Shown here in pieces: positions 19,973-44,798 of a stretch of DNA of 64,000 nt. This DNA is from an uncultured Myxococcales bacterium (GTDB lineage Bacteria; Myxococcota; B64-G9). Location of the stretch: the NCBI GenBank assembly GCA_964561025.1, contig CAZLNM010000012.1, positions 416 through 64,415 on the forward strand, written 5' to 3'. The number at the start of each line of letters is the position of its first letter. The stretch's first letter is position 1. The notes under the pieces were generated by a model that was not told where the DNA came from, made no database searches, and saw only the letters and a list, made by a program, of their open reading frames with translations. Both the position numbers and the translations under genes were made by a program.

Positions 19973-21127
19973 TCAGCGCCGGCGTTCGATGCGGGCCAGG
20001 GCCTCCCGCGCGCGCATGGCGGTCTCATCGTCGGGCTTATAGTCGAACACCGAGAGCAGGTGCTGGTAGGCCGTGGTGGGCTGGCCGCGGGCGAGCGCCA
20101 GCAGGCCGAGGTGCAGAAACACCCGCGCCAGATCCGCGCGATCGCCGTGGGCCGAGAGGCACCGCCGCAGGAGCCGGGCGGCCGCCAGCGGGTGCCCCGC
20201 CTCGTGGAGCCAGTCGGCGAGCACCACGCACTCGTCCGGGGACAGCCGGCCGAGCTCGCCCGGGGGCACCTCCTCCAGGGTGTTTATGGCGTCCGCGGGG
20301 CGCTGCTCGCGGATGGCGCTGCTCAGGCGCTCCAGCGGGTGCGCCGCCCGGGGAGCGAACTCGCGCTTCGCCGGGCCGCGGTCCTGCCAGGGCCAGGACC
20401 AGCCGAGCGCCTCGCCGGCCAGCGCCAATCCCAGGCCCGCCACGAACCCACCCAGGTGGGCGCCGAAGGCCACATTGGAGTCTGAGCCGATGAGAAACGG
20501 CAGCAGGTTGTCGGCCACGATGTAGAACCCCAGCACCCAGCGCACCGGCAGCAGCACGGTGTCGAAGAAGAACGGGAACAGCGCCACGAACACCTTCACC
20601 CGGTTGCGCGGGAACATCACGAAATACATCCCGATCACGCCGGAGATGGCCCCGGAGGCGCCGACCAGGGGGATCTGGCCGTTCTTGGCGAACAGCGAGA
20701 AGGCCAGCGTCGAGAGCATCCCGGTGCCGAGGTAGGCCAGAAGGTAGCCGATCCGGCCCAGCCGGTGCTCGATGTTGTCGCCGAAGATCCACAAGAACAG
20801 CATGTTGCCGGCGAGGTGCAGCAGTCCGGCGTGCAGGAACATGCAGGTGATGAGGTCGAGGAACTCCGGCTGGGCGGGCCGGTAGCCGTGCGCGAAGACG
20901 AACAGGTCGTAGGCCGAGAGCTCTCGCAAGGAAAGAAACGAGATCGGCTGATCCGGCATGAGCTTGTGCAGGTACTCGACGAGCAGCGGGTCGCGCGGGT
21001 CCACCCCGGTCTGGGAGAGCGGCAGGGCCACGACGAGGTACACCAGGATGTTCACCCCCATGAGGGACCAGTTGACCCAGGGGCGGAAGAACTGCGGGTT
21101 GGGCGTGTCGCCGAGCGGGATGAACAT
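19973..21127 (-). CDS. rhomboid-family intramembrane serine protease with C-terminal TPR-like domain
   Basis: Multiple TM segments, an HxxxN-type region (FLHAGLLHLAGNMLFLWIFG), the catalytic GASGAISGV and a downstream AHLGG. The soluble C-terminal tail is helical-repeat-like. Confidence 0.8.
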   Translation of the reverse strand: MFIPLGDTPNPQFFRPWVNWSLMGVNILVYLVVALPLSQTGVDPRDPLLVEYLHKLMPDQPISFLSLRELSAYDLFVFAHGYRPAQPEFLDLITCMFLHAGLLHLAGNMLFLWIFGDNIEHRLGRIGYLLAYLGTGMLSTLAFSLFAKNGQIPLVGASGAISGVIGMYFVMFPRNRVKVFVALFPFFFDTVLLPVRWVLGFYIVADNLLPFLIGSDSNVAFGAHLGGFVAGLGLALAGEALGWSWPWQDRGPAKREFAPRAAHPLERLSSAIREQRPADAINTLEEVPPGELGRLSPDECVVLADWLHEAGHPLAAARLLRRCLSAHGDRADLARVFLHLGLLALARGQPTTAYQHLLSVFDYKPDDETAMRAREALARIERRR

Positions 21128-21301
21128 GCGGGCAGCCTACTCGCGGAGGCTTCTTTGTGCAACCCGGTCGGCGGCTGACCGTGCCTCGTTATTTTTCCGA
21201 CAATGTTCTCTTGGGCGCGGCTGCTTTGCGCCGCGCCGCTGAAAGCTCCACGATGGCTCGAAGCCGTTGCATCCCGGCCCAAAAAACAATAACGTTGCCA
21301 C

Positions 21302-21937
21302 ATGAATCAAAGAAATCCCCAAGCGTGCATTCGCCGGTGGCTGTATCGCCTGTCCCTGGTCGCGGTGATTTCGGCCGGCGGGTGGGCGATCGCTCCGCCT
21401 GCCTTCGCCGGAGAGACCGCCAGCGCCGCTGCGCGGCCGGAGAAATACGCCAAACCCCTCCAGGGAGAGGGCCTGTCCAACTTCTTCAAGGTCTCGGACG
21501 TGCTCTACCGCGGGGCGCAGCCGGACAAGGAAGGCATGAAGACGCTCGAGAAGCTGGGCATCCGCACCGTGGTCAACCTGCGCTCGATGCACTCCGACCG
21601 CAAGAAGCTCAAAGGTACCAATCTTCGCTACGTGCACATCCCCATCAACACCTTCGACATCAAGGAAGAGCAGGTGGTGGCCTTCCTCAAGGTCATGGCC
21701 GACCCCGCCAACCACCCGGTGTTCCTCCACTGCCAGCACGGGGCCGACCGCACCGGCATGATGTCGGCCTTCTACCGCATCATGTTCCAGGGCTGGTCGC
21801 GCGAGGAGGCCATGCAAGAGATGCTCGAGGGCGGCTACGGCTTCCACACCATATGGAAGAACATCGTCTCGTTCCTTCGCAAAGCCGACCTCGAGCGCAT
21901 CCGCGAGCGGGCCGGCCTGCCGCCGGCGAAGCCATAG
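21302..21937 (+). CDS. secreted Cys-based (CX5R) protein tyrosine/dual-specificity phosphatase-like protein
   Basis: Signal peptide, then the HCQHGADRTG P-loop (HCX5R[ST]). Confidence 0.7.
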   Translation: MNQRNPQACIRRWLYRLSLVAVISAGGWAIAPPAFAGETASAAARPEKYAKPLQGEGLSNFFKVSDVLYRGAQPDKEGMKTLEKLGIRTVVNLRSMHSDRKKLKGTNLRYVHIPINTFDIKEEQVVAFLKVMADPANHPVFLHCQHGADRTGMMSAFYRIMFQGWSREEAMQEMLEGGYGFHTIWKNIVSFLRKADLERIRERAGLPPAKP

Positions 21938-24038: not shown

Positions 24039-26354
24039 ATGCGGCACCTTCCTCACGGGATGCTCCCGGCCCTGCTGGCCGTGGCGATCGCGGCCGGCGG
24101 GCGCGCGGAGGCGGCGGCGCCGGGAGGAGGGGAGGCGTCCGCCGCGCACGCCGCCATCGAGGGGGTGCTGCGGGACAAACAGAGCGGCGAGCCGCTGCCC
24201 GGGGCGCCGGTCCAGCTCGACGGCAAGGACATCGCCATCACCGACGAGCGCGGGCGCTTCGTCTTCGAGCGGGTCGCGCCCGGCGCCCACGAGCTGTGGG
24301 TCCAGGACCCCGACCACGTCCCGCTGCGCGTGCACGTCAATGTGGCCGAGGGCCAGCGGCTGTCCCTGTCCTACGCCCTGGACCCCGTAGGCTCCGAGGA
24401 GCAGGAAGAGGTGGTGGTGGTCTCGAAGCGCCTCCAGGCCGAGGTCAGCAACACCGTGGTGCAGGTGGAGGAGGTCAAGAAGATCCCCGGCACCCAGGGC
24501 GACGTGGGCAAGATCGTGCAGAGCCTGCCCGGCGTGGCGCAGGGCATGGCCTTCTCCTCGGGGACCATGGGGCCGGGGCTGCTCATCCAGGGCGCGGCTC
24601 CGCAGGACAGCAAGATCCTGATCGACGGGCACCCGGTGCCGCTCTTGTATCACTTCATGGGGCTCACCTCGGCCGTCAACTCGGACATCCTGAAGAGCAT
24701 CGACTTCATTCCCGGGGCCTTCGGCGCCGAGTTCGGCGAGGCCATCGGGGGCATCGTGGACACCCGCACACGGCCCTGCGACCGGCAGGACTTCGGCGGC
24801 TACGTCAACCTGGGCATGATCGACGCCGGCGTCCTCTTGGAAGGCCCGCTGGGGCCGAAGGCCGGCTTCGTGGCCGCTTTCCGCCGCAGCACGGTGGACG
24901 TGTGGCTGCCCTCGGTGCTCGAGGACATCGAGGGCTTCGAACTCACCGTGGCCCCGGTGTACTACGACTACCAGCTCAAACTTGAGCTGCTGCCGGCGCG
25001 CGGCGATCACCTGACGCTGTTCGCCTACGGCTCATCCGACGAGGCGCGCCTGGTGATGCAGAAGGCCGTGAGCGCCGACCCCGGCATGCTCGGCACCTAC
25101 CAGGACCAGATCCAGTTCCACCGCGTGAACCTGGCCTGGGTCCACTCGCCCGACCCGTCCTGGGAGTTCCGCACCTCGCTGGCCGGCGGCTACGACCAGT
25201 ACCACTTCCGCTTCGGGGCCGAGCGCTTCGTGCAGGCGCGGGTGTACTCCATGGCCAGCCGCTTCGACTGGGAGTGGCAGATCGACCGGCGCTGGTTCAT
25301 CCACGGCGGGCTGCTCGCCTCGACGTTGTCCTACCAGTACTCCATGCGCATGCCCCGGCCGCCGAAGGAGGGCGAGGTGGTGGCGGACTTCGCCAGCCTG
25401 GAGATCCTGGAGGGGAGCGAGCGCACCGCCTGGATGTGGGGCGGGGCCTACGGCGTGCTCGGCTGGTCGCCGGTGCCGCGGCTGCTGCTCACCCTGGGCG
25501 CGCGGGTGGAGGCCTTCGACCTGCCGCTCAACCAGGCGGTGTTGCTCCCGCGACTTTCGTTACGCTACGAACCGCGGCCCGGCACCGTGCTCAGCGCGGG
25601 CTTCGGCATTTACGCCCAGGCCCCGGCCCCGGACGAGATGTCGCGCCTGCTCGGCAACCCCGATCTCGACATGGTGCGGGCGCGCCACTACGCCCTGCGC
25701 GTCCAGCAGGACTTGCCCTGGCAGGGCCAGCTCGACGTGGAGGTGTTCTACAAGGAGATGGACAAGCTGGTGGTGCCGGACGCGCGGGCCTTCTACAGCA
25801 ACGCCGGCCGGGGCAAGGCCTCTGGCCTGCAGCTCATGCTGCGGCGCGACGCCCGCGAAGGCCCCTTCGGCTGGCTGGCCTACACCCTGATGCGCTCCGA
25901 GCGGCAGGACGGCCCGGGCCAGCCGTGGCGGCTGTTCGACTGGGACCAGACGCACATCCTCACCATGGTGCTGGGCTACCTGCTGCCCACCGGCCCGGTG
26001 GTGCCCGCGCACGGCCTTCGCGACGGCTGGCAGTTCGGGCTGCGCTTCTCGCTCGTCTCCGGCAACCCCACCACGCCGCTGCTCGGCGGCATCTTCGACG
26101 CCGACTACGACAGCTACCGGCCCATCCCGCTCGAGAAGAACAGCGAGCGCCTGCCGCTCAACCACCGCCTGGACGTGCGGGTGGACTACACCTGGGCCTT
26201 CGCCCGCTTCGCGCTCACCCTTTTTCTCGACGTGCAGAACGCCTACAATTACCGCTCGGTGGAAGGCATCCGCTACAACTACGACTTCACTGAGCGCGCC
26301 TACTTCCGGGGCCTGCCCATCATCCCGGCCCTGGGCCTGAAGGGGTCCTTCTAA
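24039..26354 (+). CDS. TonB-dependent outer-membrane receptor with N-terminal carboxypeptidase-regulatory-like domain
   Basis: Signal peptide, a CarboxypepD_reg-like beta-sandwich (GVLRDKQSGEPLPGAPVQLDGK...), a plug (KKIPGTQGDVGKIVQSLPGV), a long beta-barrel region and a terminal aromatic residue (…LKGSF). Confidence 0.78.
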   Translation: MRHLPHGMLPALLAVAIAAGGRAEAAAPGGGEASAAHAAIEGVLRDKQSGEPLPGAPVQLDGKDIAITDERGRFVFERVAPGAHELWVQDPDHVPLRVHVNVAEGQRLSLSYALDPVGSEEQEEVVVVSKRLQAEVSNTVVQVEEVKKIPGTQGDVGKIVQSLPGVAQGMAFSSGTMGPGLLIQGAAPQDSKILIDGHPVPLLYHFMGLTSAVNSDILKSIDFIPGAFGAEFGEAIGGIVDTRTRPCDRQDFGGYVNLGMIDAGVLLEGPLGPKAGFVAAFRRSTVDVWLPSVLEDIEGFELTVAPVYYDYQLKLELLPARGDHLTLFAYGSSDEARLVMQKAVSADPGMLGTYQDQIQFHRVNLAWVHSPDPSWEFRTSLAGGYDQYHFRFGAERFVQARVYSMASRFDWEWQIDRRWFIHGGLLASTLSYQYSMRMPRPPKEGEVVADFASLEILEGSERTAWMWGGAYGVLGWSPVPRLLLTLGARVEAFDLPLNQAVLLPRLSLRYEPRPGTVLSAGFGIYAQAPAPDEMSRLLGNPDLDMVRARHYALRVQQDLPWQGQLDVEVFYKEMDKLVVPDARAFYSNAGRGKASGLQLMLRRDAREGPFGWLAYTLMRSERQDGPGQPWRLFDWDQTHILTMVLGYLLPTGPVVPAHGLRDGWQFGLRFSLVSGNPTTPLLGGIFDADYDSYRPIPLEKNSERLPLNHRLDVRVDYTWAFARFALTLFLDVQNAYNYRSVEGIRYNYDFTERAYFRGLPIIPALGLKGSF

Positions 26355-27208
26355 TGCGCCGCGCCCTCGCCGCTGCGTTGTGCCTGTGCGCCGCCGCGTT
26401 CGCGGCCGGCTGCGACAACCCCTTTCCGCCGGGGTCGCTGGTCGAGCGCCTGCGCGTGCTGGGTGTGCGGGCCGAACCGCCCGAGGTGGGCCTCGACGGC
26501 GAGGTCGTGCTTTCGGCGCTGGTGGCCGATCCGCAGGGCGGCGGCCGGCCGCTTTCGTTCGAGTGGGCGGTGTGCCTGAGCGAGCTTTCCTACCAGGCCG
26601 CGGACATCGACTGCCCCGGCGCGGACGGCTATGCGCTGCCGGGGTCGGGAGACACGGCGCGTCTCTCCGTGCCCGCGCTGGTGGAGTTCGCGGCGGCGAA
26701 CCTCCCGGCGGGCTCGTTCGGCGACCCCGCCGCCTGGAAGGACCTGAAGTGGTTCCCGCTCATCGTCGGCCTGCGGGCCCGGGCTGGCGATGAGGTCGTC
26801 CGCGCCATCAAGCGGGTGCGGCTGCGGCTGGCCACCGAGGAGCCCCCCAACGCCAACCCGCGCCTTCTGGGCCTCACGCTCGACGGGGCAGAGGCGCTGG
26901 ATCTTGTGCAGGTGAAGGCGGGGGCGACGGTGTCGTTCCAGGCCCTGGTCGATCCGGCCACGCGCGAGCGGTACCGCCGGCAGGGCGAGAGCGAGGAGCG
27001 CATCGAGGACGTGGTGTTCGCCTGGTTCGCCACCGGCGGCGAGTTCGAGGGTGACTACTCGGTCCTGTCCGGCGACGGCACCAGCGAGTTCGACCGCATG
27101 CGGTGGACGGCGCCGGACGAACCCGGCCAGGTCGAGCTGTGGGTGGTCGCCCGCGACGGCCGGTTCGGCGAGGACTGGTTGGAGCGAACCATCGAGGTGG
27201 TCCCGTGA
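26354..27208 (+). CDS. lipoprotein of unknown function, coupled to the TonB-dependent receptor gene
   Basis: Lipobox AFAAGC. Its ATG shares one base with the receptor gene's stop codon (TAATG). No family recognised. Confidence 0.55.
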   Translation: MRRALAAALCLCAAAFAAGCDNPFPPGSLVERLRVLGVRAEPPEVGLDGEVVLSALVADPQGGGRPLSFEWAVCLSELSYQAADIDCPGADGYALPGSGDTARLSVPALVEFAAANLPAGSFGDPAAWKDLKWFPLIVGLRARAGDEVVRAIKRVRLRLATEEPPNANPRLLGLTLDGAEALDLVQVKAGATVSFQALVDPATRERYRRQGESEERIEDVVFAWFATGGEFEGDYSVLSGDGTSEFDRMRWTAPDEPGQVELWVVARDGRFGEDWLERTIEVVP

Positions 27209-27356
27209 CGAAGCGCATCTGGAATGGATACAGGCTGGCGCCGAGTGAGCGGGCGCGCACACACGCGACCTCTCGACCGGCCAGGACATTCGCGCCCGAC
27301 CGCGCTGGCGCTGGCGGCCCCGCTGTCGGTCGCGAGCTTACGAAGGAGCGTGCCCC

Positions 27357-28640
27357 GTGGAAGCGTTCGTGATCGAGGGAGGCCGCCGCCTGAGCGGGAG
27401 CATCCGCCCCAGCGGCAACAAGAACTCCGCCCTACCGCTCCTGGCCGCGTCATTGCTCACCGACCAGCCGCTCATCCTGCGCAACGTGCCGCGCATCCGT
27501 GACGTGGCCGCCAAGCGCCAGATCCTGGCCGCCCAGGGCGTGGCCTTCGACGAGCCGGGGGCCAACGTGCTGCGCATGCAGTCCGGCTCCATGCCCGCCA
27601 TGGACCCCGATCCCGAGCTGTGCCGGCGCATCCGCACCTCCATCCTGTTGGCCGGCCCGCTGCTGGCGCGCCTCGGCCACGTGCGCCTGCCGCGCCCCGG
27701 GGGCGACCGCATCGGCCCGCGCCCGCTGGACACCCACTTCCAGGTGCTGCGCGCGCTGGGGGCCAAGGTCGAGATCACCCCGCACTTCTACGAGGCTCGC
27801 ACCGACGGGCTGCGCGGCGCCGATATCTTCCTCGAGGAGATGAGCGTGACCGGCACCGAGCAGGCGGTGCTGGCGGCGGTGCTGGCCGACGGCGACACGG
27901 TCATTTGCAACGCGGCCTCGGAGCCGCACGTGCAGGACCTGTGCCGCTGCCTGTGCGGCATGGGCGCGCGCATCTCGGGGATCGGCACCAACACCCTGGA
28001 GATCCATGGCGTGCCCAGGCTCGCCGGCGCGGACTTCACCCTCGGCCCGGACTACATGGAGGTCGGATCGTTTCTGGGGCTGGCGGCGGTCACCGGCTCC
28101 GAGCTGCGCATCCAGGGGGCGCGCCCGCAGGAGCACCGCATGACCCGCATCGCCTTCGGCAAGCTCGGCGTGACCTGGCGCGACGAGGGCGACGACATCG
28201 TCATCCCAGCCGGGCAGGAGCTGCGCGTGCAGGCCGGGCCCCACGGGGCCATCCCCAAGATCGACGACGCGCCCTGGCCGGGTTTCCCCTCCGACCTCAT
28301 GAGCATCGCGCTCACCGTGGCCACCCAGGCCGAGGGCACGGTGCTGATCCACGAGAAGATGTTCCAGAGCCGCCTGTTCTTCGTGGACAAGCTCATCGAC
28401 ATGGGGGCGCGCATCATCCTGTGCGATCCCCACCGGGCGGTGGTGTCCGGCCGCTCCCCGCTGTTCGGCGAATCCCTCACCAGCCCCGACATCCGGGCCG
28501 GCATGGCCATCCTCATCGCCGCGTTGTGCGCCCAGGGGCAGTCGGTCATCTCCAACATCGAGCAGATCGATCGCGGTTACCAGGACATCGAAAAGCGCCT
28601 CGCCGCCGTCGGCGCCGCCATCCGGCGCGTGAGCCTCTAG
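27357..28640 (+). CDS. murA: UDP-N-acetylglucosamine 1-carboxyvinyltransferase
   Basis: GSIRPSGNKNSALPLLAASLLT N-terminus and an EPSP-synthase-fold repeat, 427 aa, GTG start. Confidence 0.9.
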   Translation: MEAFVIEGGRRLSGSIRPSGNKNSALPLLAASLLTDQPLILRNVPRIRDVAAKRQILAAQGVAFDEPGANVLRMQSGSMPAMDPDPELCRRIRTSILLAGPLLARLGHVRLPRPGGDRIGPRPLDTHFQVLRALGAKVEITPHFYEARTDGLRGADIFLEEMSVTGTEQAVLAAVLADGDTVICNAASEPHVQDLCRCLCGMGARISGIGTNTLEIHGVPRLAGADFTLGPDYMEVGSFLGLAAVTGSELRIQGARPQEHRMTRIAFGKLGVTWRDEGDDIVIPAGQELRVQAGPHGAIPKIDDAPWPGFPSDLMSIALTVATQAEGTVLIHEKMFQSRLFFVDKLIDMGARIILCDPHRAVVSGRSPLFGESLTSPDIRAGMAILIAALCAQGQSVISNIEQIDRGYQDIEKRLAAVGAAIRRVSL

Positions 28641-28658
28641 CTCCCCCGTCCATCCGCC

Positions 28659-28692
28659 GTCCGGATTTCGACAGTATGTTCGAAATCCGGAC
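28659..28692 (+). promoter_or_regulatory. 13-bp perfect inverted repeat: murA terminator hairpin or enhancer (UAS) for the downstream sigma-54 promoter
   Basis: GTCCGGATTTCGA (28659-28671), an 8-nt spacer, then TCGAAATCCGGAC (28680-28692). It starts 19 nt after the murA stop, has no U-tract, and is centred about 95 nt upstream of the predicted sigma-54 transcription start. Confidence 0.4.
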
Positions 28693-28744
28693 AGGATCGG
28701 CGATGCCGTTCGTAAATCTATCTGAAAAACAAAGGCAATTTTTC

Positions 28745-28760
28745 TGGCATCGATCTTGCT
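28745..28760 (+). promoter_or_regulatory. sigma-54 (-24/-12) promoter candidate for the FHIPEP operon
   Basis: cTGGCATcgatcTTGCT compared with the consensus YTGGCACGrNNNTTGCW. It has exact GG-N10-GC spacing, lies in an AT-rich stretch about 35 nt upstream of ATG 28794, and a gggagaag RBS sits between. Confidence 0.55.
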
Positions 28761-28793
28761 TACACACCGGCCGGATATCACGGGAGAAGCTTC

Positions 28794-30653
28794 ATGGACT
28801 TTATCAGGCGTGTGGGCAGGATGCTTCTCGGTGGAGGCCGGATGGAGCGTATCTTCGCCCTGTTCGTCCTCTCGGCGGTGGCCATCCTGATCCTGCCCAT
28901 CCCACCCGCCTTGATGGACCTGCTCCTGTGCGCGAACCTGGCCGGCTCGCTCACGTTGCTCTTGGTCTCGCTAGAGATGGGGGACGCGCTGCGGGTGGCC
29001 TCGTTCCCCACGCTGCTTCTGGTCAGCACCGTGTTCCGCCTCACCCTGAACATCTCCACCAGCCGGCTGGTGCTGCTCCACGGCGACGCGGGCGCGGTGG
29101 TGCGGGCCTTCGGCGAGTTCGTGGTGCAGGGCAATCCCCTGGTGGGCGGCATCGTGTTCCTCATCATCACCGTGGTGCAGTTCGTGGTCATCGCCAAGGG
29201 GGGCGAGCGGGTGGCCGAGGTCACCGCGCGCTTCACCCTCGACGCCATGCCGGGCAAGCAGATGAGCATCGACGCCGACCTGCGCGGCGGGCTCATCGAC
29301 GGCGCCGAGGCGGCGCGCCGGCGCGGGCAGCTGGAGCGCGAGGCCCAATTCTACGGCGCCATGGACGGCGCCATGAAGTTCGTCAAGGGCGACGCCGTGG
29401 CCGGCCTGGTGATCGTGGCGGTGAACATCCTGGGGGGCCTGCTGGTGGGCGTGGGGCAGCACGGCATGGAGCTGCCCGCCGCGGTGGCCCACTACACCGT
29501 GCTCACCATCGGCGACGGGCTGGCCTCCCAGGTGCCGGCGCTGCTGGTGTCGGTCGCGGCCGGGCTGGTGATCACCCGGGTCCGGCCGGAGAAGAGCGGC
29601 GCGGGGCTGGGGGGCGAGGTGCTGCGCCAGCTCGGCGCGCACCCCGAGGCCTTGCTGCTGGCGGGAGGGGCGTTGTCCGGCCTGGGGGTCATCCCGGGGA
29701 TGCCCACCGTCTCGTTCATGGTCCTGGGCGGAGCGACGGTGGCCCTGGGCCTTTGGCTGCGCGCCCGGGGCCGGCGCGACCTGCGGGCACGGGCGGAGCC
29801 GGCGCCGCGCGAGGGCGGGCCGTGCCTGTTCCTGGACCCCGCCATTTCGCCACAGGAGATCATGCCGCGGTTGGAGGAGCTGCGGCGGGGGCTCGAGGAG
29901 GACCTGGGGATCCCGGTGCCGTCCGTGCGGCTCGCCGCCGGGGCGCCGGGGCGCTGGCGCCTGGAGGTGGACCAGGCTCCCGTCGCGGCCGGCGCGCTGC
30001 CCGATCGGAACGTTCCCTGGGGCCGGCTGGAACAGGCCTTGCGGGAGTCGGCCTTCCGCTTCGTGGGGGTGCAGGAGGTGCAGGATCTGCTGGATCGGCT
30101 GGAGCGGAGCCAGCCCGCGCTGGTGCGCGAGATCGTCCCGCGGCTCATCCCGCCGGTGCTCCTGGCCGAGGTGCTCGCGCGCCTGGTCGAGGAGGGCGTG
30201 CCGATCCGCAACCTCAAGGGCATCTTGCTCTCGCTGGCCGAGCACGCGCGCCGCGAGTCCGACCCGGTCCAGCTCAGCGAGCGGGTGCGCGAGGCCCTGC
30301 GGCCGATCATCAGCCACCGCCTGGCGCCGGACGGCAGCCTGCAGCCGCTCCTGCTGGACCCGGCCATCGAGGAGGCGCTGGCCAGGGGCCTTTCGCGCGA
30401 CGGCGCCGGGGCCTCGCTGTCGCTGCCACCCGAGCAGGGAGAGGCCATCCTGAGCGCCCTCGAACGGACTCTGCGCAAAGGCGCGGGCCAACCGGTGGTG
30501 GTCCTGACCCGGCCGGAGCTGCGCCGTCCCTTCTGGAAGCTGGCCGCCAACCTGTGCCGCACGCTCTTCGTGGTGAGCTACGGGGAGCTGGAGCCGAACG
30601 TCTCGCTCAAGCCCGCCGGCGTGATCCGGCTGGCCCTGGAGGCAAAGAAATGA
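28794..30653 (+). CDS. FHIPEP-family export-gate protein (SctV/FlhA-like), orphan
   Basis: The N-terminal TM domain carries the FHIPEP core (GNPLVGGIVFLIITVVQFVVIAKGGERVAEVTARFTLDAMPGKQMSIDADL...EREAQFYGAMDGAMKFVKGDAVAG). The cytoplasmic C-domain is about 300 aa. At 619 aa it is shorter than the roughly 680-700 aa I recall for typical family members. Confidence 0.85.
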   Translation: MDFIRRVGRMLLGGGRMERIFALFVLSAVAILILPIPPALMDLLLCANLAGSLTLLLVSLEMGDALRVASFPTLLLVSTVFRLTLNISTSRLVLLHGDAGAVVRAFGEFVVQGNPLVGGIVFLIITVVQFVVIAKGGERVAEVTARFTLDAMPGKQMSIDADLRGGLIDGAEAARRRGQLEREAQFYGAMDGAMKFVKGDAVAGLVIVAVNILGGLLVGVGQHGMELPAAVAHYTVLTIGDGLASQVPALLVSVAAGLVITRVRPEKSGAGLGGEVLRQLGAHPEALLLAGGALSGLGVIPGMPTVSFMVLGGATVALGLWLRARGRRDLRARAEPAPREGGPCLFLDPAISPQEIMPRLEELRRGLEEDLGIPVPSVRLAAGAPGRWRLEVDQAPVAAGALPDRNVPWGRLEQALRESAFRFVGVQEVQDLLDRLERSQPALVREIVPRLIPPVLLAEVLARLVEEGVPIRNLKGILLSLAEHARRESDPVQLSERVREALRPIISHRLAPDGSLQPLLLDPAIEEALARGLSRDGAGASLSLPPEQGEAILSALERTLRKGAGQPVVVLTRPELRRPFWKLAANLCRTLFVVSYGELEPNVSLKPAGVIRLALEAKK

Positions 30654-31192
30654 AGATCCCGCTCGCGGTGTGGTTCGCCATCGCCGGGGTGTGCGGTTGC
30701 TTTGCGAGGACGGTGGTGCACCCCGAGGCGGTGCGGCTCAACGACGAGGGCGCCCGGGCCATGGCCGAGGGGCGCGCGCGCGAGGCGCGGGTGCTGTTCG
30801 AGCTGAGCCTGGAGTACGGGCCGTGCTACGCCGAGGCCCTGCACAACCTGGGGATCTGGCACCTGCTGCGCGGGGAGTTGCCGGCCGCCGCCCTGCGCGA
30901 GGAGGAGGCGCTGGTCTGCCGGCCGGACCTGGTCCAGGCTCGGTGCGGACTGGGAGTGGTGCGTTGGCGGCAGGGGGATCGCGACGAGGCGCGCGCGCTG
31001 TTCGAGGAGGCCCTGCGGCTCGATCCCGGATCGCTCGACGCGCGGCGCAACCTGGTGCTCCTGGATCTAGAACAGGGAAGGCTGGAGGAGGCCCGCATCC
31101 AACTCGATCGGCTGCGGGTCCTCTCCCCGGAAGACCCGATTCTGAAAGACCTGCCACCGGACGCAGAGACCGCTTTTTCGGATGGCCAGTGA
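30650..31192 (+). CDS. small TPR lipoprotein (pilotin-like architecture)
   Basis: Its ATG overlaps the FHIPEP stop in a 4-nt ATGA. It has a lipoprotein signal (WFAIAGVCGC) and about 4 TPR units. It is the 3' end of a 1190-aa shadow ORF in the track. Confidence 0.7.
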   Translation: MKIPLAVWFAIAGVCGCFARTVVHPEAVRLNDEGARAMAEGRAREARVLFELSLEYGPCYAEALHNLGIWHLLRGELPAAALREEEALVCRPDLVQARCGLGVVRWRQGDRDEARALFEEALRLDPGSLDARRNLVLLDLEQGRLEEARIQLDRLRVLSPEDPILKDLPPDAETAFSDGQ

Positions 31193-31205
31193 AAGAGGGA
31201 GGATC

Positions 31206-32012
31206 ATGACATTTCGCTTCTTCATCGTGGGACAGGAAGCCACCGCGGCGGGGTTCTTCGTGGACGAGGCCCGCGCGGGCCCGGAGGTCGTCCTCGGCCG
31301 GGACGAGCAAGCGCACATCGTGCTCCCGGATCCCTCCGTCTCCCGCCGGCACTGCCGGGTGACGGAACACGCGGACGGGCCGCGGGTGGAGGACCTGGGT
31401 AGCCGGCTCGGCACACGTCTGAACGGCGCCGCGCTGCTGCCGGGGGAGCCTGTGTTGCTACGGCAGGGGGACGAACTCACCCTGGGGGTGTACCGGGTGG
31501 TCTTCGTGGGGGACTCTGACGCTGCCTGCGATGAGACTCGCGCCGTGGCGGCGGCGCTGCAGGAACTCCTCGAGCAGCCGGACGCCGTGGTCGAGAAGGC
31601 GTACCTGGAGATTGAGAACGGGCCCGAGGCAGGGAAGCGTATCGATCTGCCAGACGAGGGCGTGCTGCGGCTCGGCCGCGGCCGGGAGTGCGAGGTTCGC
31701 CTGGATGACGCGCGAACCTCGAGAGCCCACGCGCTGATTCGGCTGCGCCGCAAGGAGGCCTGGCTGGAGGACAATGGATCTCAAAACGGCACCTTCGTGG
31801 GCGAGCGGCGAGTGCGACGGGAGGTCCGGCTCGCGGATCGGGATCAGTTGCGCCTGGGCCGGATGGTGCTGCGCGTACGGCTGCCAAAGCAACCGCTCGA
31901 TCTCGGCGCCGTCCTCTCGGCCCGGACGGGGCCGGCGCGGCGCCTGTGGCTTTCCTCGCTGGCATTTCTGCTGATGGGAGTCGGCGGTCTTCTGCTGGCG
32001 GCGTGGACCTAG
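31206..32012 (+). CDS. tail-anchored protein with two FHA domains
   Basis: Two FHA signatures (VVLGRDEQAHIVLPDPSVSRRHCRV...LGSRLGTRLNG and LRLGRGRECEVRLDDARTSRAHALI...NGSQNGTFVG) and a C-terminal TM segment (LWLSSLAFLLMGVGGLLLAAW). Start at ATG 31206 after a gagggagga RBS, 13 nt after the TPR gene. Confidence 0.78.
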   Translation: MTFRFFIVGQEATAAGFFVDEARAGPEVVLGRDEQAHIVLPDPSVSRRHCRVTEHADGPRVEDLGSRLGTRLNGAALLPGEPVLLRQGDELTLGVYRVVFVGDSDAACDETRAVAAALQELLEQPDAVVEKAYLEIENGPEAGKRIDLPDEGVLRLGRGRECEVRLDDARTSRAHALIRLRRKEAWLEDNGSQNGTFVGERRVRREVRLADRDQLRLGRMVLRVRLPKQPLDLGAVLSARTGPARRLWLSSLAFLLMGVGGLLLAAWT

Positions 32013-32109: not shown

Positions 32110-33204
32110 CTAGCTGAGATCCACCCGGAGCACCTGGTTGCCGATCTGGACGCGATCGTCGTGAGCGAGCGGCGTGCTGCCGACGATGCGCAGGTAGGTG
32201 CCGTTCGACGAGCCCAGGTCGCGCAGGAAGCAATCCCCCTGGCGGTTGCTGAGCAGACAGTGGCGCGAGGAGATGTACCCGTCATCGGGGAAGCGCACCT
32301 CGCCCTCCTCGCGCCCGATCATGACCTCGGCCTGGGTGAGCAGGTGGATCTCGCCGATCTTGCCGCCTTCCAAGATCTGCACCAGGCGGGCCCACACCTG
32401 GGGCACCGGGCTGCCCCAGAACTGGCTGTCGTCGCCGGCCTTCGGCGGGGCCTCCAGGTCCTGGAAGCCCCCCGGCACCTCCAGCCGCAGCAGTTGCCGC
32501 CCGATGCGAAAGCAGGTCCCCGGCGCGATGGGCTCCTCGGCGGTCATCTTGCGGAAGATGCCGTTGAGGCTGTCGAGGTCGGTGATGGAGAGCTGGCCGT
32601 CCTTGAAGGTGAGTTCGGCGTGCCGCGGGGAGATGAACGGATCCTTGGGGAACATGATGACCCCCTGGCTCCGCCCGAGCGTGGTGCGCTCGGCGGCCAG
32701 GGTGAAGACCGTGCCCTCGGAGCCGTCGGGCTTGATCAGCACCAGCCGGGCGCGGGGTTTGCGGGCGGCGTCGGGGGAGGCCACGTGCATGAACATGGTG
32801 GCCCCCTTCGGCGCCGCCTCGCCGCCGGAGAGCCGCTGGCCGCAGCCGCTACAGAAGACGTCGCCGGGCTTGGTGGGGGCGTGGCAGTGCGGGCAGGCCG
32901 CGGGGGCGCCAGACGGCGATTCTACGGCCGGGGCGGCGGCGACCGGCGCCGGCTCCGCGGGGGGAGGCGGCGGCGCCGCGGCGGGCGGCGGGGCGGCCGG
33001 ACGGATGGCGCTCGCGGGTTTCGCCTGGGCGCCGGTGGCCGGGCGGGAAGGCCGTGGGGCTGGAGCGGGCTCTACCGGAGCTGGCGGCGCCGCGGCCGGA
33101 GCGGGCTTCTCCGAGGTCCCGCCGGGGCGCAGCACGTTGCCGCAGTCGAGGCAGAAGCGGAACGAATCGTCGTTTTCCCTGCCGCAGTTCGGGCACTTGA
33201 CCAT
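32110..33204 (-). CDS. double zinc-ribbon, double FHA-domain protein
   Basis: MVKCPNCGRENDDSFRFCLDCG and CPHCHAPTKPGDVFCSGCG zinc ribbons, a Pro/Ala linker, then two FHA domains (LGRSQGVIMFPKDPFISPRHAEL...SLNGIF; IGREEGEVRFPDDGYISSRHCLL...SSNGTY). I trimmed the start to ATG 33204. Confidence 0.78.
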   Translation of the reverse strand: MVKCPNCGRENDDSFRFCLDCGNVLRPGGTSEKPAPAAAPPAPVEPAPAPRPSRPATGAQAKPASAIRPAAPPPAAAPPPPPAEPAPVAAAPAVESPSGAPAACPHCHAPTKPGDVFCSGCGQRLSGGEAAPKGATMFMHVASPDAARKPRARLVLIKPDGSEGTVFTLAAERTTLGRSQGVIMFPKDPFISPRHAELTFKDGQLSITDLDSLNGIFRKMTAEEPIAPGTCFRIGRQLLRLEVPGGFQDLEAPPKAGDDSQFWGSPVPQVWARLVQILEGGKIGEIHLLTQAEVMIGREEGEVRFPDDGYISSRHCLLSNRQGDCFLRDLGSSNGTYLRIVGSTPLAHDDRVQIGNQVLRVDLS

Positions 33205-42189: not shown

Positions 42190-42215
42190 GAGCCCGTTCT
42201 TTCGAGGGACAAGCG

Positions 42216-44798
42216 GTGAACGACACCGATCGCTCGCGCCAGGCTTCGCCCATCCGGACCGCCGGCCTCCTGGTCGGCCTGTGGGGCCTGGTGGTGCTGG
42301 TCAGCAACTTGTTCATCATCTGGTTCTTTCCCCCGCCCAAGGGTCACTGGCTCCTGTTCGAGATCGTGCTGTGGGCCGGCGCCGTGCTGATGGGCTGGTG
42401 CACCGTTTTTTTGGTGTTGCGCTTCTACCAGCCGCTCATGGACTTCTACGAGGCCCACCTGAACGGCAGGAAGCTGGAGGACGCCATCATCGAGAGGGCC
42501 CGGCGGGCGGCCGGAAGCCTGTACCTCAAGCTGGCCGCCACCGGCGGCGTCTGTCCCGTGCTGCTCATGCTCGGCGTGGGCCTGTTCATGATCTGGGAGG
42601 CCGACCTCCCCGCCCAGCACCTGGGCTACTTCATCCTGCTGGGGTTGTTCGGGGCGCTGACGATGGGCATGGTGTTCTTCTTCGCCCCCGGCGCGCGCTC
42701 CGGTCAGGCCCTGGAGGCGGCGTCCAGTTACGGCGCGGGTGGGCCGCGGCGGCGCGGTTTGTCGTTGGGAAGCAAGACCATCATGCTGGGGTTCGGCCTG
42801 GCCTGCATGCCGGCGCTGCTGGTGGGCGCCTTCAGCAACTACCACGCCAACCGGCTCATGGCCGAGGAGCTGGGCCGGCGCATGGAGAGCGGCCTGGTGC
42901 TGGTGGAGCGCGGAGCGCGCGCCCTGGAGCAAGATGGCGCCGGACGGAGCGAGATCGACAAGTACCTCACCACCGAATCCCGCAAGCTCGGGGAGGGCGT
43001 CTTCTTGCACCTGGTGAGCCAGAACGGGGCGGCCTTCCGCAGCCAGGACGCCGAGCCCCTCACCGGCGAGCTGTACCGGACGATCGTCGCCCTGCGCGGC
43101 CCCGGGGTCTCGGGCACCGTGACGGATCCCGCGGGCTCGGGCAGCTACGCCTTCGCCTTCAGCGCGGACTCGTCGAGGGTGCTCATCGCGCCGGTGCGCG
43201 CCGCGGCCTTGCGCAGCACGCAGCGCACCCTGCTGGGGCTGACGTTGGGCATCCTGCTGTGCTCGCTGGTCGTGGCGGCCGGCCTGGGATGGCTGTTCGC
43301 GGCGTACCTGGGCGGGACCATCCGGCGCATGGTGATGTTCACCGGCGAGGTGGCCCGCGGCGAGCTGCGCCGGGATCTCACGGTGGTGGGAGACGACGAG
43401 ATCGGCGAGCTGGGGGACGCGCTGCACGCCATGGCCGACAACTTGCGGCGGATGGTGCGCGACGTCTCCACCCTGGCCAACCAGATCGCGGGCACCTGCG
43501 ACCGGTTGCTGCTCAAGGCCTCGGCCATCGCCACCGGGGCCGACGTGCAGGCCCAGTCGGTGCACGAGACCAGCAACGCCGTGCACAGCCTCAACCAGAC
43601 CATCGGCACCGGCGCCGAGGCGCTCAAGAAGCTGGCCCACTCCGCCCGCGAGACCGCCGAGGTCGCCGACAAGGTGAGCCAGGGTTTCTCGCTCATGTTG
43701 ACGGAATGTGATTCCTTGCAGGGGACGGTCGATCGCACCGGTCAGATCGTGGAGCGCATGACCCGGGCCGTGCAGGAGGTGGCCCAGGTCATCCACGAGC
43801 TCAGCGGCGGTGCCGTGCGCTCCGCCCAGTCGATGTCGGAGGTCGATCGCTCCGTGGCCGAGGTGACCACCCGGGCGGCGGAGACCGCCCAGATGACCCG
43901 CCGGGCCATCGACGTGGCCCAGGAAGGCGCGGTGGCCGTCCGGCGCACCATCGAGGGAATGGATCGGATCGTGGAATCCACCCGGCAGGCCTCCAGCGTC
44001 ATCCTGGGGCTCGGCAACCGCATCGAGGCCATCGGCTCCATCCTGGGCGTGATCGAGGAGATCGCCGATCAGACCAACCTGCTGGCCCTCAACGCGGCCA
44101 TCATCGCGGCCCAGGCCGGCGAGCACGGCCGGGGATTCGCGGTGGTGGCCGACGAGATCCGCTCCCTGGCCGAGCGCACCGGGTCCTCCACCCGGGAGAT
44201 CGGCCAGATGATCACCGACATCCAGGAGGCCTCCGGAGAGGCCATCCGCGTCATGCGTGGCGGAGGCGCCACGGTCAACGAGGGCGTGAACCTGGCCAAG
44301 CAGGCCGGGGAATCGCTCAACCAGATCCTGGTCAACGTCCAGCGCGCGGCCGAGAACGTGGAGATGATCGCCAAGTTCACGGAGACCCAGGCGCGCTCCA
44401 GCGCGGTGGTCACCCGCGAGATCAACCAGGTGGCCGAGCTGGCCGGGCGGATCTCGGAGACCGCCTCCGGGCAGACCCGGAGCGGCGAGGAGCTGCTGGC
44501 CGCCTTCCGCGAAACGTTGCAGAGCACGCAGGCCATCGGCAAGTTGGTGAACCAGCAGGCCCAGGAGAACCGCCTGGCCCTGGCCACGGTGGGGGACATG
44601 CGAGACTCGGCGGAGCGGACCCGCACGGCCCTGTCGGAGCAGATGGCGGTTTCGGACAATATCCTGCGCGTCATCGAGCAGGTGCGGGAGATCGCCAAGA
44701 ACCACGCCAAGGCCGCGCAGGAGATGGGCGAGGCCACGCAGTCCTTGGCCGAGAAAAGTGCGCGTCTCAAGCAGGAAATCGACGTCTTCCATGTGTAG
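42216..44798 (+). CDS. methyl-accepting chemotaxis protein (multi-TM, HAMP, MA domain)
   Basis: About six N-terminal TM segments, a HAMP domain (…[23 protein letters not shown]) and the canonical hairpin tip [42 protein letters not shown]. Confidence 0.88.

What the first reader, a model, noticed from the sequence alone, without database searches (positions are those of the whole stretch)
28659..32012. Orphan FHIPEP (SctV/FlhA-like) export-gate gene in a three-gene operon with a TPR lipoprotein and a tail-anchored double-FHA protein
Seen in the sequence:
- A 619-aa FHIPEP protein with a well-conserved TM core is encoded with no other type III or flagellar export genes anywhere in the 64-kb window. 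SctR/S/T/U, the ATPase, SctJ/D/C/Q and the needle or rod genes are all absent.
- It is coupled by a 4-nt ATGA overlap to a 180-aa TPR lipoprotein. A gene follows 13 nt later for two cytoplasmic FHA domains plus one C-terminal TM segment.

Established knowledge:
- SctV normally works as a nonamer inside a complete export apparatus.
- SctD-family ring proteins have cytoplasmic FHA-like domains, two of them in chlamydial CdsD.
- TPR lipoproteins act as secretin pilotins (PilF/Tgl).
- Myxococcus has a needle-less T3SS, but there sctV sits inside a full cluster.

Inference: this trio may be a minimal or repurposed export-gate module, or a regulatory derivative. The FHA protein would be an SctD remnant that reads phospho-Thr signals.
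Basis: partly seen in the sequence, partly recalled or inferred. Interest (0 to 1): 0.7.

Follow-up and report, generated by a model that had tools for sequence, protein, structure and literature searches.

The report
Detached piece of myxobacterial needle-less T3SS
The lone export-gate gene and its two partners are real and conserved, but they are most likely one piece of a myxobacterial needle-less type III secretion system whose genes are scattered around the genome and share one kind of promoter.

Summary
Three coupled genes lie at 28794-32012(+): a 619-aa FHIPEP/SctV, a 180-aa TPR lipoprotein and a 268-aa tail-anchored double-FHA protein. No other type III gene lies in the 64 kb, which is nearly the whole 64.7-kb contig.

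The trio is not an odd new association. In complete Myxococcaceae T3SS loci, sctV is flanked by a homologous TPR-lipoprotein and double-FHA operon. The FHA gene there is the one annotated SctD (MXAN_2464) in M. xanthus T3SS*.

The window's version defines a conserved clade of uncultured Myxococcota:
- Its SctV lacks subdomain SD2 and has a shorter linker.
- An intact sctU lies adjacent in most relatives. A clade-type sctU was recovered at a separate locus from two of the sequencing runs that also contain the window organism.
- Clade sctU and sctV carry a sigma-54 promoter (degenerate in two loci) and a shared upstream palindrome, TGTCCGRAATCCGGACA.

A metagenome scan with that signature recovered an sctJ-L-N-Q-fliO-R-S-T operon that lacks sctU and sctV. 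Published tables also show scattered T3SS genes in Polyangia MAGs.

The trio is therefore most likely (0.6) the sctV sub-operon of a dispersed, SD2-less T3SS* variant. A truly stand-alone gate remains possible (about 0.2), because the rest of this genome could not be searched.

The parts
28659..28693 (+). Pair of inverted copies of a conserved upstream palindrome (consensus TGTCCGRAATCCGGACA). The arms are 28659-28671 and 28680-28692, and the best 17-mer is 28677-28693. Probable binding site of a sigma-54 enhancer-binding protein.
   Evidence: Perfect 13-nt inverted repeat. The 17-mer is the only match at up to 3 mismatches in the 64 kb, against 0.07 expected. In 1.8 Mb of fetched loci it occurs, apart from one chance hit, only directly upstream of clade sctU or sctV.
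28745..28760 (+). Sigma-54 type -24/-12 promoter, TGGCATCGATCTTGCT, 34 nt upstream of the sctV start codon.
   Evidence: Only match to TGGCAY-N5-TTGCW on either strand of the window, against 0.12 expected. Strict matches lie at the same position upstream of sctU or sctV in L003, L006 (two), L007 (two), L096 and L005/L093, always 51-56 nt after the palindrome where both are present.
28794..30653 (+). sctV: FHIPEP export-gate protein, 619 aa. The TM domain and FHIPEP loop are intact, the linker is short, and the cytoplasmic domain lacks subdomain SD2.
   Evidence: Pfam and NCBIfam. PDB alignment: aa 14-325 match YscV 13-322, aa 358-402 match 392-439 and aa 409-612 match 499-703, so about 60 residues are missing. 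Clade alignment. AlphaFold model with pLDDT 86.8 and no SD2. Foldseek best matches are SctV and FlhA C-domains. dN/dS 0.18. On the non-flagellar side of an NJ tree with 100/100 support.
30650..31192 (+). TPR lipoprotein, 180 aa, translationally coupled to sctV by an ATGA overlap. A short counterpart of the 350-aa TPR lipoprotein next to sctV in Myxococcaceae T3SS loci.
   Evidence: TPR families. Conserved lipobox Cys and two further conserved Cys. HMM of clade TPR proteins scores 98 bits on the L009 neighbour. BLASTP against the L097 neighbour is colinear from the lipobox, E = 3e-13. dN/dS 0.37.
31206..32012 (+). Tail-anchored double-FHA protein, 268 aa, with two cytoplasmic FHA domains and a C-terminal TM helix. 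Positional counterpart of the FHA protein annotated SctD (MXAN_2464) in M. xanthus T3SS*.
   Evidence: FHA at aa 28-94 and 136-224. FHA2 has GR, TSRAH and GSQNGT. FHA1 has GR and SVSRRH, but its Asn is replaced by Leu. 31% identity over 232 aa with the L097 neighbour of sctV, E = 1e-30, with the same architecture. MXAN_2464 annotation from PMC11821767 Table S5. dN/dS 0.27.
32110..33204 (-). Convergent gene for a cytoplasmic protein of 364 aa with two zinc ribbons, a Pro/Ala-rich linker and two FHA domains. It is a conserved neighbour of the trio in every clade locus whose flank reaches it; whether it is a functional partner is not shown.
   Evidence: Pfam DZR, Zn_ribbon and FHA. Found in the same position and orientation in L001, L003, L005, L006, L089-L093 and L115. 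The C-terminal 230 aa look more conserved across lineages than SctV (by eye). Not found next to sctV in L009 or L097.

Best explanation
The three genes are the sctV sub-operon of a myxobacterial needle-less type III secretion-like system (T3SS*). It occurs here in an uncultured Myxococcota lineage where the system's genes are dispersed over several loci instead of one cluster.

Proposed mechanism (inferred).
- SctV forms the usual proton-driven nonameric export gate around an SctRST-SctU core that is encoded elsewhere in the genome.
- The tail-anchored double-FHA protein is the 'SctD' of myxobacterial systems, but it has no periplasmic ring domain. It sits in the inner membrane with both FHA domains in the cytoplasm. 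There it docks cytoplasmic partners and reads phospho-threonine marks written by Ser/Thr kinases.
- The TPR lipoprotein is the periplasmic partner.
- The separate units (sctV-TPR-FHA, sctU, and an sctI/J/L/N/Q/R/S/T operon) are switched on together by sigma-54 and one enhancer-binding protein that recognises TGTCCGRAATCCGGACA.

This variant's SctV has lost subdomain SD2, part of the chaperone-docking surface in flagellar and injectisome gates. Substrate delivery is therefore expected to differ from the canonical chaperone route.

Shown: gene content, homology, synteny, the SD2 deletion, purifying selection and the shared promoter signature.
Inferred: the assembly with SctRST, the roles of the FHA and TPR proteins, and the identity of the regulator.
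For: 1. Ancestral triad. In an Archangium MAG (L009) and a complete Myxococcaceae genome (L097, CP120527.1), sctQ-fliO-sctR-S-T-U...sctV is followed by a convergent operon. That operon encodes a TPR lipoprotein (350 aa) and then a protein with two FHA domains and a C-terminal TM helix (351 aa). BLASTP against the window proteins gives E = 1e-30 and 3e-13. In M. xanthus the gene next to sctV (MXAN_2463) is an FHA protein annotated SctD (MXAN_2464).
2. Conserved clade.
- About 27 SctV clusters of 52-94% identity were found, on loci of 47-72% G+C.
- L001-L004, L006 and L115 carry sctU-sctV-TPR-FHA; L005 and L093 carry the trio without an adjacent sctU; in L007 sctU lies 5 kb upstream.
- SctU keeps its N-terminal motif and the NPTH autocleavage site.
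- dN/dS is 0.18-0.37.
3. Same organism. A clade-type sctU (P0172, NPTH intact) lies on 69% G+C contigs from SRR21798932 and SRR19214163. Contigs 100% identical to the window's FHA gene come from those same two runs. This sctU has the palindrome upstream.
4. Shared regulation. The sigma-54 promoter and the palindrome lie upstream of sctU and sctV even where the two genes are unlinked, as in L007.
5. The missing core exists under the same signature. L138 carries the UAS and promoter, followed by a needle/rod-like gene, sctJ, sctL, sctN, sctQ, fliO, sctR, sctS and sctT, and no sctU or sctV. It comes from the same metagenome, has the same G+C, and has an identical 17-mer to the sctU locus L116.
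6. Published data. In Polyangia MAGs, homologues of SctR, S, T, U, V and J sit at widely separated gene numbers. LcrH-type chaperones occur only in the Myxococcaceae bin (PMC11821767 Table S5).
Against: - No SctR, S, T, N, Q or J gene was shown for the window's own genome. The contig ends at about 64.7 kb and no tool could search the rest.
- The link between L138 and the window's clade rests on the same metagenome, the same G+C and the same promoter motifs, not on a shared contig.
- The assignment of L094 to the window organism rests on co-occurrence in two runs, matching G+C and the palindrome.
- The promoter signature is not exclusive to sct genes. Most of the 120 metagenome hits precede unrelated genes.
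- Loss of SD2 and of the long linker could instead mean that the gate no longer works as a secretion gate.
- The L094 promoter is degenerate, and L001 has TTGA in place of TTGC.
Confidence: 0.6

Rival explanations
1. A true minimal module. This lineage has lost SctRST, the ATPase and the rings. It keeps only SctV (without SD2), SctU, the TPR lipoprotein and the double-FHA protein. These form a stand-alone inner-membrane complex with a new job, for example a phospho-regulated, proton-motive-force-coupled channel or signalling platform rather than a protein secretion machine.
For: - No other T3SS gene lies in the 64 kb of the window or within 10 kb of any clade locus.
- In L094, sctU is also alone, between a Ser/Thr kinase gene and yceD-rpmF-fabD-acpP.
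- SD2, part of the chaperone-docking site, and part of the linker are deleted.
- Other SD2-less Myxococcota SctVs (L008, L012, L017, L028) are also alone within the flanks held, a full 10 kb each side only for L017 and L028.
- FHA proteins and kinases recur around the module.
Against: - SctU has no known role outside an SctRST-containing export apparatus, yet it keeps its NPTH site and N-terminus.
- An sctJ-to-sctT operon that lacks exactly sctU and sctV exists under the same promoter signature.
- Published MAG tables show that scattered but present SctR, S and T are the rule in Polyangia.
- The TPR and FHA partners are ordinary members of complete Myxococcaceae clusters.
Confidence: 0.2
2. 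The trio belongs to a working T3SS*, but the TPR and FHA genes and the Zn-ribbon-FHA gene are merely retained neighbours. They would have no direct role at the gate and would act instead in general Ser/Thr-kinase signalling.
For: - The FHA domains are generic. The best NCBIfam matches are FhaB/FipA, TagH and OdhI, while the SctD model scores only 25 bits.
- The TPR matches are generic.
- The Zn-ribbon-FHA protein appears more conserved than the sct genes and is absent from the Myxococcaceae loci.
Against: - TPR and double-FHA stay next to sctV from Myxococcaceae to this clade, despite rearrangement of everything else and a switch from convergent to co-directional arrangement with a 4-nt overlap.
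- Translational coupling argues for stoichiometric co-production.
Confidence: 0.12
3. A decaying relic of a lost T3SS or flagellar system, no longer functional.
For: - It is isolated from other sct genes in the window.
- SD2 is deleted.
- It scores below the NCBIfam equivalog cut-offs.
- dN and dS are higher than in the flanking housekeeping genes.
Against: - The open reading frames are intact and coupled.
- dN/dS is 0.18-0.37.
- The invariant FHIPEP-loop residues are kept.
- The clade is conserved across lineages of 47-72% G+C, with a conserved promoter.
- It lies on the non-flagellar side of the tree with 100/100 support.
Confidence: 0.03

Closest known systems
Myxococcus xanthus needle-less T3SS* (MXAN_2434-2464; Abby & Rocha 2012 'Myxo' NF-T3SS; Thiery et al. 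2022, as cited in PMC10433427 and PMC12075869)
   Same: - An SctV of the non-flagellar type.
- The same neighbours: a TPR lipoprotein and a tail-anchored double-FHA protein (the MXAN_2464 'SctD' position).
- No secretin, needle or translocon genes seen.
- In the relative L138, the gene order sctJ-L-N-Q-fliO-R-S-T matches MXAN_2439-2449.
   Different: - The genes are not in one cluster. sctV-TPR-FHA, sctU and the sctI-T block lie at separate loci.
- SctV lacks SD2 and is about 90 aa shorter.
- The TPR protein is half the size.
- The FHA protein lacks the acidic linker.
- TPR-FHA is co-directional and translationally coupled to sctV instead of convergent.
- The sigma-54 promoter and palindrome were not found in the Myxococcaceae loci.
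- No LcrH-type chaperone genes lie nearby.
Chlamydial T3SS (CdsV/CdsU/CdsD), from my own knowledge and from Abby & Rocha 2012
   Same: - Core genes are scattered over several loci, with sctU and sctV together and apart from sctRST.
- The SctD homologue CdsD has two cytoplasmic FHA domains and is linked to Ser/Thr kinase signalling.
- The CdsV C-domain is the best Foldseek match.
   Different: - CdsD has a large periplasmic domain, and CdsV has SD2.
- Chlamydiae have a full injectisome with secretin and needle.
- The NJ tree shows no specific relationship.
Orphan or repurposed flagellar export genes: chlamydial FlhA/FliI/FliF, the Lysobacter enzymogenes FT3SS remnant (PMC7277350, PMC7688988), and the B. 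subtilis CORE nanotube platform (PMC6456723)
   Same: Export-apparatus genes are kept in organisms without the parent organelle, possibly with a new role.
   Different: - Those are flagellar (FlhA-type) genes and include FliPQR.
- The window's gene is SctV-type.
- None of those cases has the TPR/FHA partners.
TPR lipoprotein pilotins (PilF/PilW, Tgl)
   Same: A small periplasmic TPR lipoprotein. Tgl and PilW are the top NCBIfam names.
   Different: - Scores are far below the family cut-offs (45 against 225, and 39 against 154).
- No secretin gene lies nearby.
- Its true relatives are the sctV-linked TPR lipoproteins of Myxococcaceae.

Membership tests
FHIPEP / SctV export gate | N-terminal multi-pass TM domain with the conserved FHIPEP cytoplasmic loop (RFxLDxMPGKQMxIDAD, MDGAxKFVKGDA) | tested here: met
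   aa 14-325 align without large gaps to YscV 13-322, and both motifs are present. These residues are invariant in a 59-sequence alignment.
FHIPEP / SctV export gate | Cytoplasmic domain with four subdomains, SD1 to SD4 | tested here: not met
   SD1, SD3 and SD4 are present, but about 45-60 residues corresponding to SD2 are absent. The AlphaFold model passes from the SD1 strands straight into the SD3 helices. The fold still matches SctV and FlhA C-domains with TMt 0.63-0.79.
FHIPEP / SctV export gate | Score above the NCBIfam equivalog cut-off for SctV (TIGR01399) | tested here: not met
   602 bits against a cut-off of 692. FlhA scores 533 against 772. The shortfall fits the missing SD2 and linker.
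FHIPEP / SctV export gate | Non-flagellar (SctV) rather than flagellar (FlhA) lineage | tested here: met
   The NJ tree splits flagellar loci from all non-flagellar loci plus this clade with 100/100 support. NCBIfam and PDB scores are higher for SctV than for FlhA.
FHIPEP / SctV export gate | Nonameric ring assembled around SctRST-U | not testable with these tools
Myxobacterial needle-less T3SS* | Genome encodes sctRSTUV, sctN, sctQ, sctJ and sctL | tested here: inconclusive
   Only sctV lies in the window. A clade-type sctU occurs in two of the sequencing runs that hold the window organism. An sctJ-L-N-Q-R-S-T operon was found in a related metagenome under the same promoter signature. The rest of this genome could not be searched.
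Myxobacterial needle-less T3SS* | sctV flanked by a TPR lipoprotein and a tail-anchored double-FHA protein | tested here: met
   The same pair lies next to sctV in L009 and L097. MXAN_2464 is the FHA 'SctD' next to MXAN_2463, the SctV.
SctD inner-membrane ring protein | Cytoplasmic FHA-fold domain followed by one TM helix | tested here: met
   Two FHA domains and one C-terminal TM helix.
SctD inner-membrane ring protein | Periplasmic ring-building domains after the TM helix | tested here: not met
   The protein ends one residue after the TM helix. TIGR02500 scores 25 bits against a cut-off of 86 and matches only the FHA part. The Myxococcaceae counterparts are also tail-anchored.
TPR lipoprotein pilotins (PilF/PilW/Tgl) | Family-level sequence match and an associated secretin | tested here: not met
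   Tgl scores 45 against 225 and PilW 39 against 154. No secretin lies in the window.
Sigma-54-dependent operon | -24/-12 element TGGCAC-N5-TTGCW at a suitable distance from the start codon, with an upstream activator site | tested here: met
   A unique match lies at 28745-28760, with a conserved palindrome 52 nt upstream. The activator protein was not identified, and transcription was not tested.

The most novel reading that the evidence does not exclude
This lineage has truly discarded SctRST, the ATPase and the ring proteins. It uses an SD2-less SctV nonamer with SctU, a periplasmic TPR lipoprotein and a phospho-threonine-reading tail-anchored FHA protein as a self-contained, sigma-54-controlled membrane machine. 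That would be the first type III export gate working outside a type III secretion apparatus.
Probability: 0.18. Interest if true: 0.8.

Novelty: new variant of a known kind. Interest (0 to 1): 0.45.

Why it matters
Three points may be of use to people who work on the myxobacterial predation machinery and on type III export gates.

1. The TPR lipoprotein and the tail-anchored double-FHA 'SctD' stay with sctV from Myxococcaceae to distant uncultured Myxococcota, even when every other gene has moved away. That singles them out as likely direct partners of the gate. The TPR gene lies just outside the published T3SS* cluster boundaries (MXAN_2434-2464), by inference from synteny.

2. A natural SctV without SD2, under purifying selection, is a ready-made test of what SD2 is needed for. 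It fits the absence of LcrH-type chaperones outside Myxococcaceae.

3. The dispersed units share a sigma-54 promoter and a palindrome. This gives a handle for finding the regulator and other regulon members, possibly including substrates.

It also warns that 'orphan' secretion genes in MAG contigs can reflect dispersal rather than loss.

Tried and rejected
- **Exact look-up of the 619-aa FHIPEP.** It found nothing, probably because gene callers chose later start codons. The FHA protein worked instead.
- **The single genome-contig scan.** It was swamped by the universal motif DAMPGKQM and returned 80 unrelated SctV/FlhA loci. I used these as controls and as a source of seeds for my own HMMs.
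- **My iterated 'SctD' HMM.** It drifted into a generic FHA model and was discarded.
- **A search for sctU in the window.** None was found.
- **The metagenome scan with the UAS and sigma-54 pattern.**
  - Most hits precede unrelated genes, so the signature is not specific to sct genes.
  - The recurrent small downstream families have no homologue in the window.
- **Position of the clade inside the non-flagellar side of the tree.** It is unresolved: monophyly of clade A, clade B and Myxococcaceae has 13/100 support. SD2-less sequences are not monophyletic in the NJ tree, so I make no claim of a single SD2 loss.
- **Readings considered and rejected.**
  - Flagellar FlhA relic: rejected on the tree and the scores.
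  - Pseudogene: rejected on dN/dS.
  - PilF/Tgl-type pilotin: far below cut-offs and no secretin.
  - The inverted repeat as terminator of the upstream MurA-like gene: it has no T-run, an A+T-rich stem, and is conserved upstream of sctU and sctV elsewhere.

Full report
**1. What is in the sequence**

- a 619-aa FHIPEP protein, 28794-30653;
- a 180-aa protein, 30650-31192, overlapping the FHIPEP stop by ATGA;
- a 268-aa protein, 31206-32012, starting 13 nt after the previous stop.

Domain evidence:
- Pfam scores the first gene 605 bits for FHIPEP. NCBIfam ranks SctV (602 bits) above FlhA (533). Both scores are below the equivalog cut-offs.
- The second protein is made of TPR repeats behind a signal peptide. 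Its lipobox Cys is conserved in all orthologues, as are two further Cys residues.
- The third protein has two FHA domains and ends one residue after a C-terminal hydrophobic helix. FHA2 has the full pThr-binding set (GR, TSRAH, GSQNGT). FHA1 keeps the Arg, Ser and His but has Leu in place of the Asn.

No other type III or flagellar family is present in the window. This holds for Pfam scans of all plausible ORFs and for six-frame searches with my own SctR/S/T/U/N/Q/W profiles. Those profiles found at least one such gene within 10 kb of 69 of 80 unrelated FHIPEP loci used as controls.

The surrounding genes are housekeeping: S6, L9, DnaB, SMC, FtsY, LytB and a MurA-like enzyme. The window is nearly the whole contig, because the longest contig carrying its FHA protein is 64,683 bp.

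**2. The trio is conserved and has more members**

Homologues of the FHIPEP protein form a tight group of about 27 clusters, roughly 620 aa long and 52-94% identical. The next best hits are about 48% identical.

Contexts recovered:
- L001-L004, L006 and L115: sctU-sctV-TPR-FHA.
- L005 and L093: the trio without an adjacent sctU, as in the window.
- L007: sctU lies 5 kb upstream of sctV, and the contig ends within the gene that follows sctV.

These loci range from 47% to 72% G+C.

In most of them an intact sctU lies immediately upstream of sctV. It keeps the N-terminal TEPPSxRKL motif and the NPTH autocleavage site. A convergent gene for a zinc-ribbon plus double-FHA protein follows the trio in every locus whose flank reaches that far.

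The window's closest relative is GCA_012798435.1, whose sequence here is identical to the ENA contig L005. It is syntenic with the window and also lacks an adjacent sctU.

Against that relative:

| Gene | dN/dS |
|---|---|
| sctV | 0.18 |
| TPR | 0.37 |
| FHA | 0.27 |
| flanking MurA-like | 0.07 |
| flanking TonB receptor | 0.14 |

The trio is therefore under purifying selection, although it evolves faster than its neighbours.

**3. The SctV is a variant**
- The alignment to Yersinia YscV (PDB 7alw) covers the whole TM domain and the FHIPEP loop. It then skips about 35 linker residues and about 60 residues of the cytoplasmic domain.
- In clade alignments the gap removes the insert that Myxococcaceae SctVs and all canonical controls carry. 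The segment between the conserved flanks is 60 aa here, 70 aa in four other Myxococcota SctVs, and 113-115 aa in canonical proteins. From my own knowledge of SctV and FlhA structures, this insert is subdomain SD2.
- An AlphaFold model (mean pLDDT 86.8) runs from the SD1 strands directly into the SD3 helices.
- Its best PDB matches are the C-domains of CdsV, YscV, SsaV, EscV, MxiA, InvA and FlhA.
- An NJ tree puts the clade (100/100 monophyletic) on the non-flagellar side of a 100/100 split from flagellar FlhA. Its position within that side is unresolved.

**4. Where the partners come from**

Profiles of the clade's TPR and double-FHA proteins hit two adjacent genes next to sctV in an Archangium MAG (L009). 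That locus carries sctN, Q, R, S, T and U upstream of sctV.

The L009 proteins are a 350-aa TPR lipoprotein and a protein with two FHA domains, an acidic linker and a C-terminal TM helix. The same pair, with the same order and architecture, flanks sctV in the complete genome CP120527.1 (L097). BLASTP against the window proteins gives 31% identity over both FHA domains (E = 1e-30) and a match colinear from the lipobox for the TPR protein (E = 3e-13).

[quoted passage not shown] The T3SS* cluster is described in PMC10433427 and PMC12075869. Its evolutionary position is treated in PMC3459982.

The trio is therefore the sctV end of the myxobacterial needle-less T3SS, not a new association. The FHA protein is the myxobacterial 'SctD'. 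It fails the SctD definition, because it has no periplasmic ring domain, both here and in Myxococcaceae.

**5. Is the gate really alone?**

Four lines of evidence argue for dispersal rather than loss.

(a) A profile of clade SctU proteins finds about 38 clusters scoring at least 337 bits, clearly separated from other SctU/FlhB proteins at 261 bits or less. One of them, P0172, lies on contigs from SRR21798932 and SRR19214163. Contigs 100% identical to the window's FHA gene come from those same two runs. The G+C matches (69%). This sctU stands between a divergent Ser/Thr kinase gene and yceD-rpmF-fabD-acpP.

(b) The window's only match to the sigma-54 consensus TGGCAY-N5-TTGCW lies 34 nt before the sctV start codon.
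- Its consensus is TGTCCGRAATCCGGACA.
- In 1.8 Mb of fetched DNA it occurs, apart from one chance hit, only upstream of clade sctU or sctV.
- This includes the unlinked pair in L007 and the L094 sctU.

- Most hits precede unrelated genes, so the signature belongs to a larger class of sigma-54 promoters.
- Besides five sctU loci and one sctV locus, it recovered L138. There the signature is followed by a needle/rod-like gene, sctJ, sctL, sctN, sctQ, fliO, sctR, sctS and sctT.
- This is the order of MXAN_2438-2449, and it stops exactly before sctU.
- L138 comes from the same metagenome as the sctU locus L116 and has the same G+C.
- The two loci share an identical 17-mer and a GGGGAC box.

(d) In published Polyangia MAGs, homologues of SctR, S, T, U, V and J are present at widely separated gene numbers. 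LcrH-type chaperone genes are found only in the Myxococcaceae bin.

**6. Conclusion and limits**

The best-supported reading (0.6) is a dispersed, sigma-54-controlled, SD2-less variant of the myxobacterial T3SS*. The window holds its sctV-TPR-'SctD' unit.

Loss of SD2 together with loss of LcrH-type chaperones suggests a changed mode of substrate delivery. This is inference. The FHA residues, the neighbouring FHA protein and the recurring kinases suggest control by Ser/Thr phosphorylation. This too is inference.

The stand-alone module (about 0.2) cannot be excluded, for three reasons:
- No SctRST gene was shown for this genome.
- The L138 link is by metagenome, composition and promoter motifs only.
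- The L094 link is by co-occurrence in two runs, composition and the palindrome.

A pseudogene or flagellar relic is very unlikely. The finding is a new variant of a known kind and is of moderate interest.

Noticed in passing
window 28641-28793; also L003 8859-8944, L006 8732-8817 and 9879-9964, L007 4042-4128 and 9841-9969, L094 584-600, L096 479-586, L138 10323-10409: A conserved palindrome, TGTCCGRAATCCGGACA, often in two tandem or inverted copies, lies 51-56 nt upstream of a sigma-54 -24/-12 element. The metagenome scan shows the same arrangement in front of many non-sct genes. It probably marks a large enhancer-binding-protein regulon in these bacteria. The regulator is unknown.
   Followed up: partly
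L098-L217 (for example L103, L104, L113, L163, L164; L102, L144, L179, L197; L117, L136, L141): Three recurrent small-protein families lie directly downstream of the same UAS and sigma-54 signature. One is a coiled-coil protein of about 105-150 aa with RMDGLE-type repeats (11 loci). One is a protein of about 67-101 aa with the motif KVLCPIEKDGKATHWIRVGTAFPNRD (8 loci). One is a protein of about 120-160 aa (5 loci). None has a homologue in the window. Whether they are co-regulated cargo or unrelated is unknown.
   Followed up: partly
window 32110-33204 (-): The zinc-ribbon plus double-FHA protein convergent with the trio appears, by eye, more conserved across lineages than SctV over its C-terminal 230 aa. 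It keeps its position in all clade loci whose flank reaches it, but is absent next to sctV in Myxococcaceae. L001 adds a second copy and a Ser/Thr kinase.
   Followed up: partly
window 28794-32012 compared with 24039-28640: Against the closest relative (L005 = L093), synonymous divergence of the trio (dS 0.19-0.34) is 2-4 times that of the adjacent MurA-like and TonB-receptor genes (0.07-0.09). This could reflect recombination or weaker codon constraint. It is unexplained.
   Followed up: no
L094 3-518 (-) and 781-1818 (+): The probable sctU of the window organism is divergently adjacent to a Ser/Thr protein kinase gene. It is followed by yceD-rpmF-fabD-acpP, so it sits in a housekeeping neighbourhood.
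   Followed up: partly
L096 599-1609 (P0162): One clade SctU has NPTR instead of the NPTH autocleavage motif. This may be a non-cleaving variant.
   Followed up: no
L097 7555-9253 (-): Four tandem 80-aa genes lie between sctU and sctV in the complete Myxococcaceae T3SS locus, flanked by small TPR (chaperone-like) genes. They are possible substrates. Nothing comparable lies in the window.
   Followed up: no
L008, L012, L017, L028: Other Myxococcota or Polyangia SctV genes that also lack SD2 stand alone within the flanks held (a full 10 kb each side only for L017 and L028), without even the TPR/FHA partners. L017 is on a 3.27-Mb contig. SD2-less sequences are not monophyletic in the NJ tree.
   Followed up: partly
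window 44551-52653 (+): A giant ORF of about 2,700 aa with PD40 (WD40-like), many TPR_12 repeats and a C-terminal CHAT protease domain. It follows an MCP-type chemoreceptor gene at 42192-44798.
   Followed up: no
window 21293-21937 (+) and 19973-21136 (-): A dual-specificity or tyrosine phosphatase gene and a rhomboid protease gene lie 7-9 kb upstream of the trio. They are syntenic in L005 and L093. No link to the FHA proteins has been shown.
   Followed up: no
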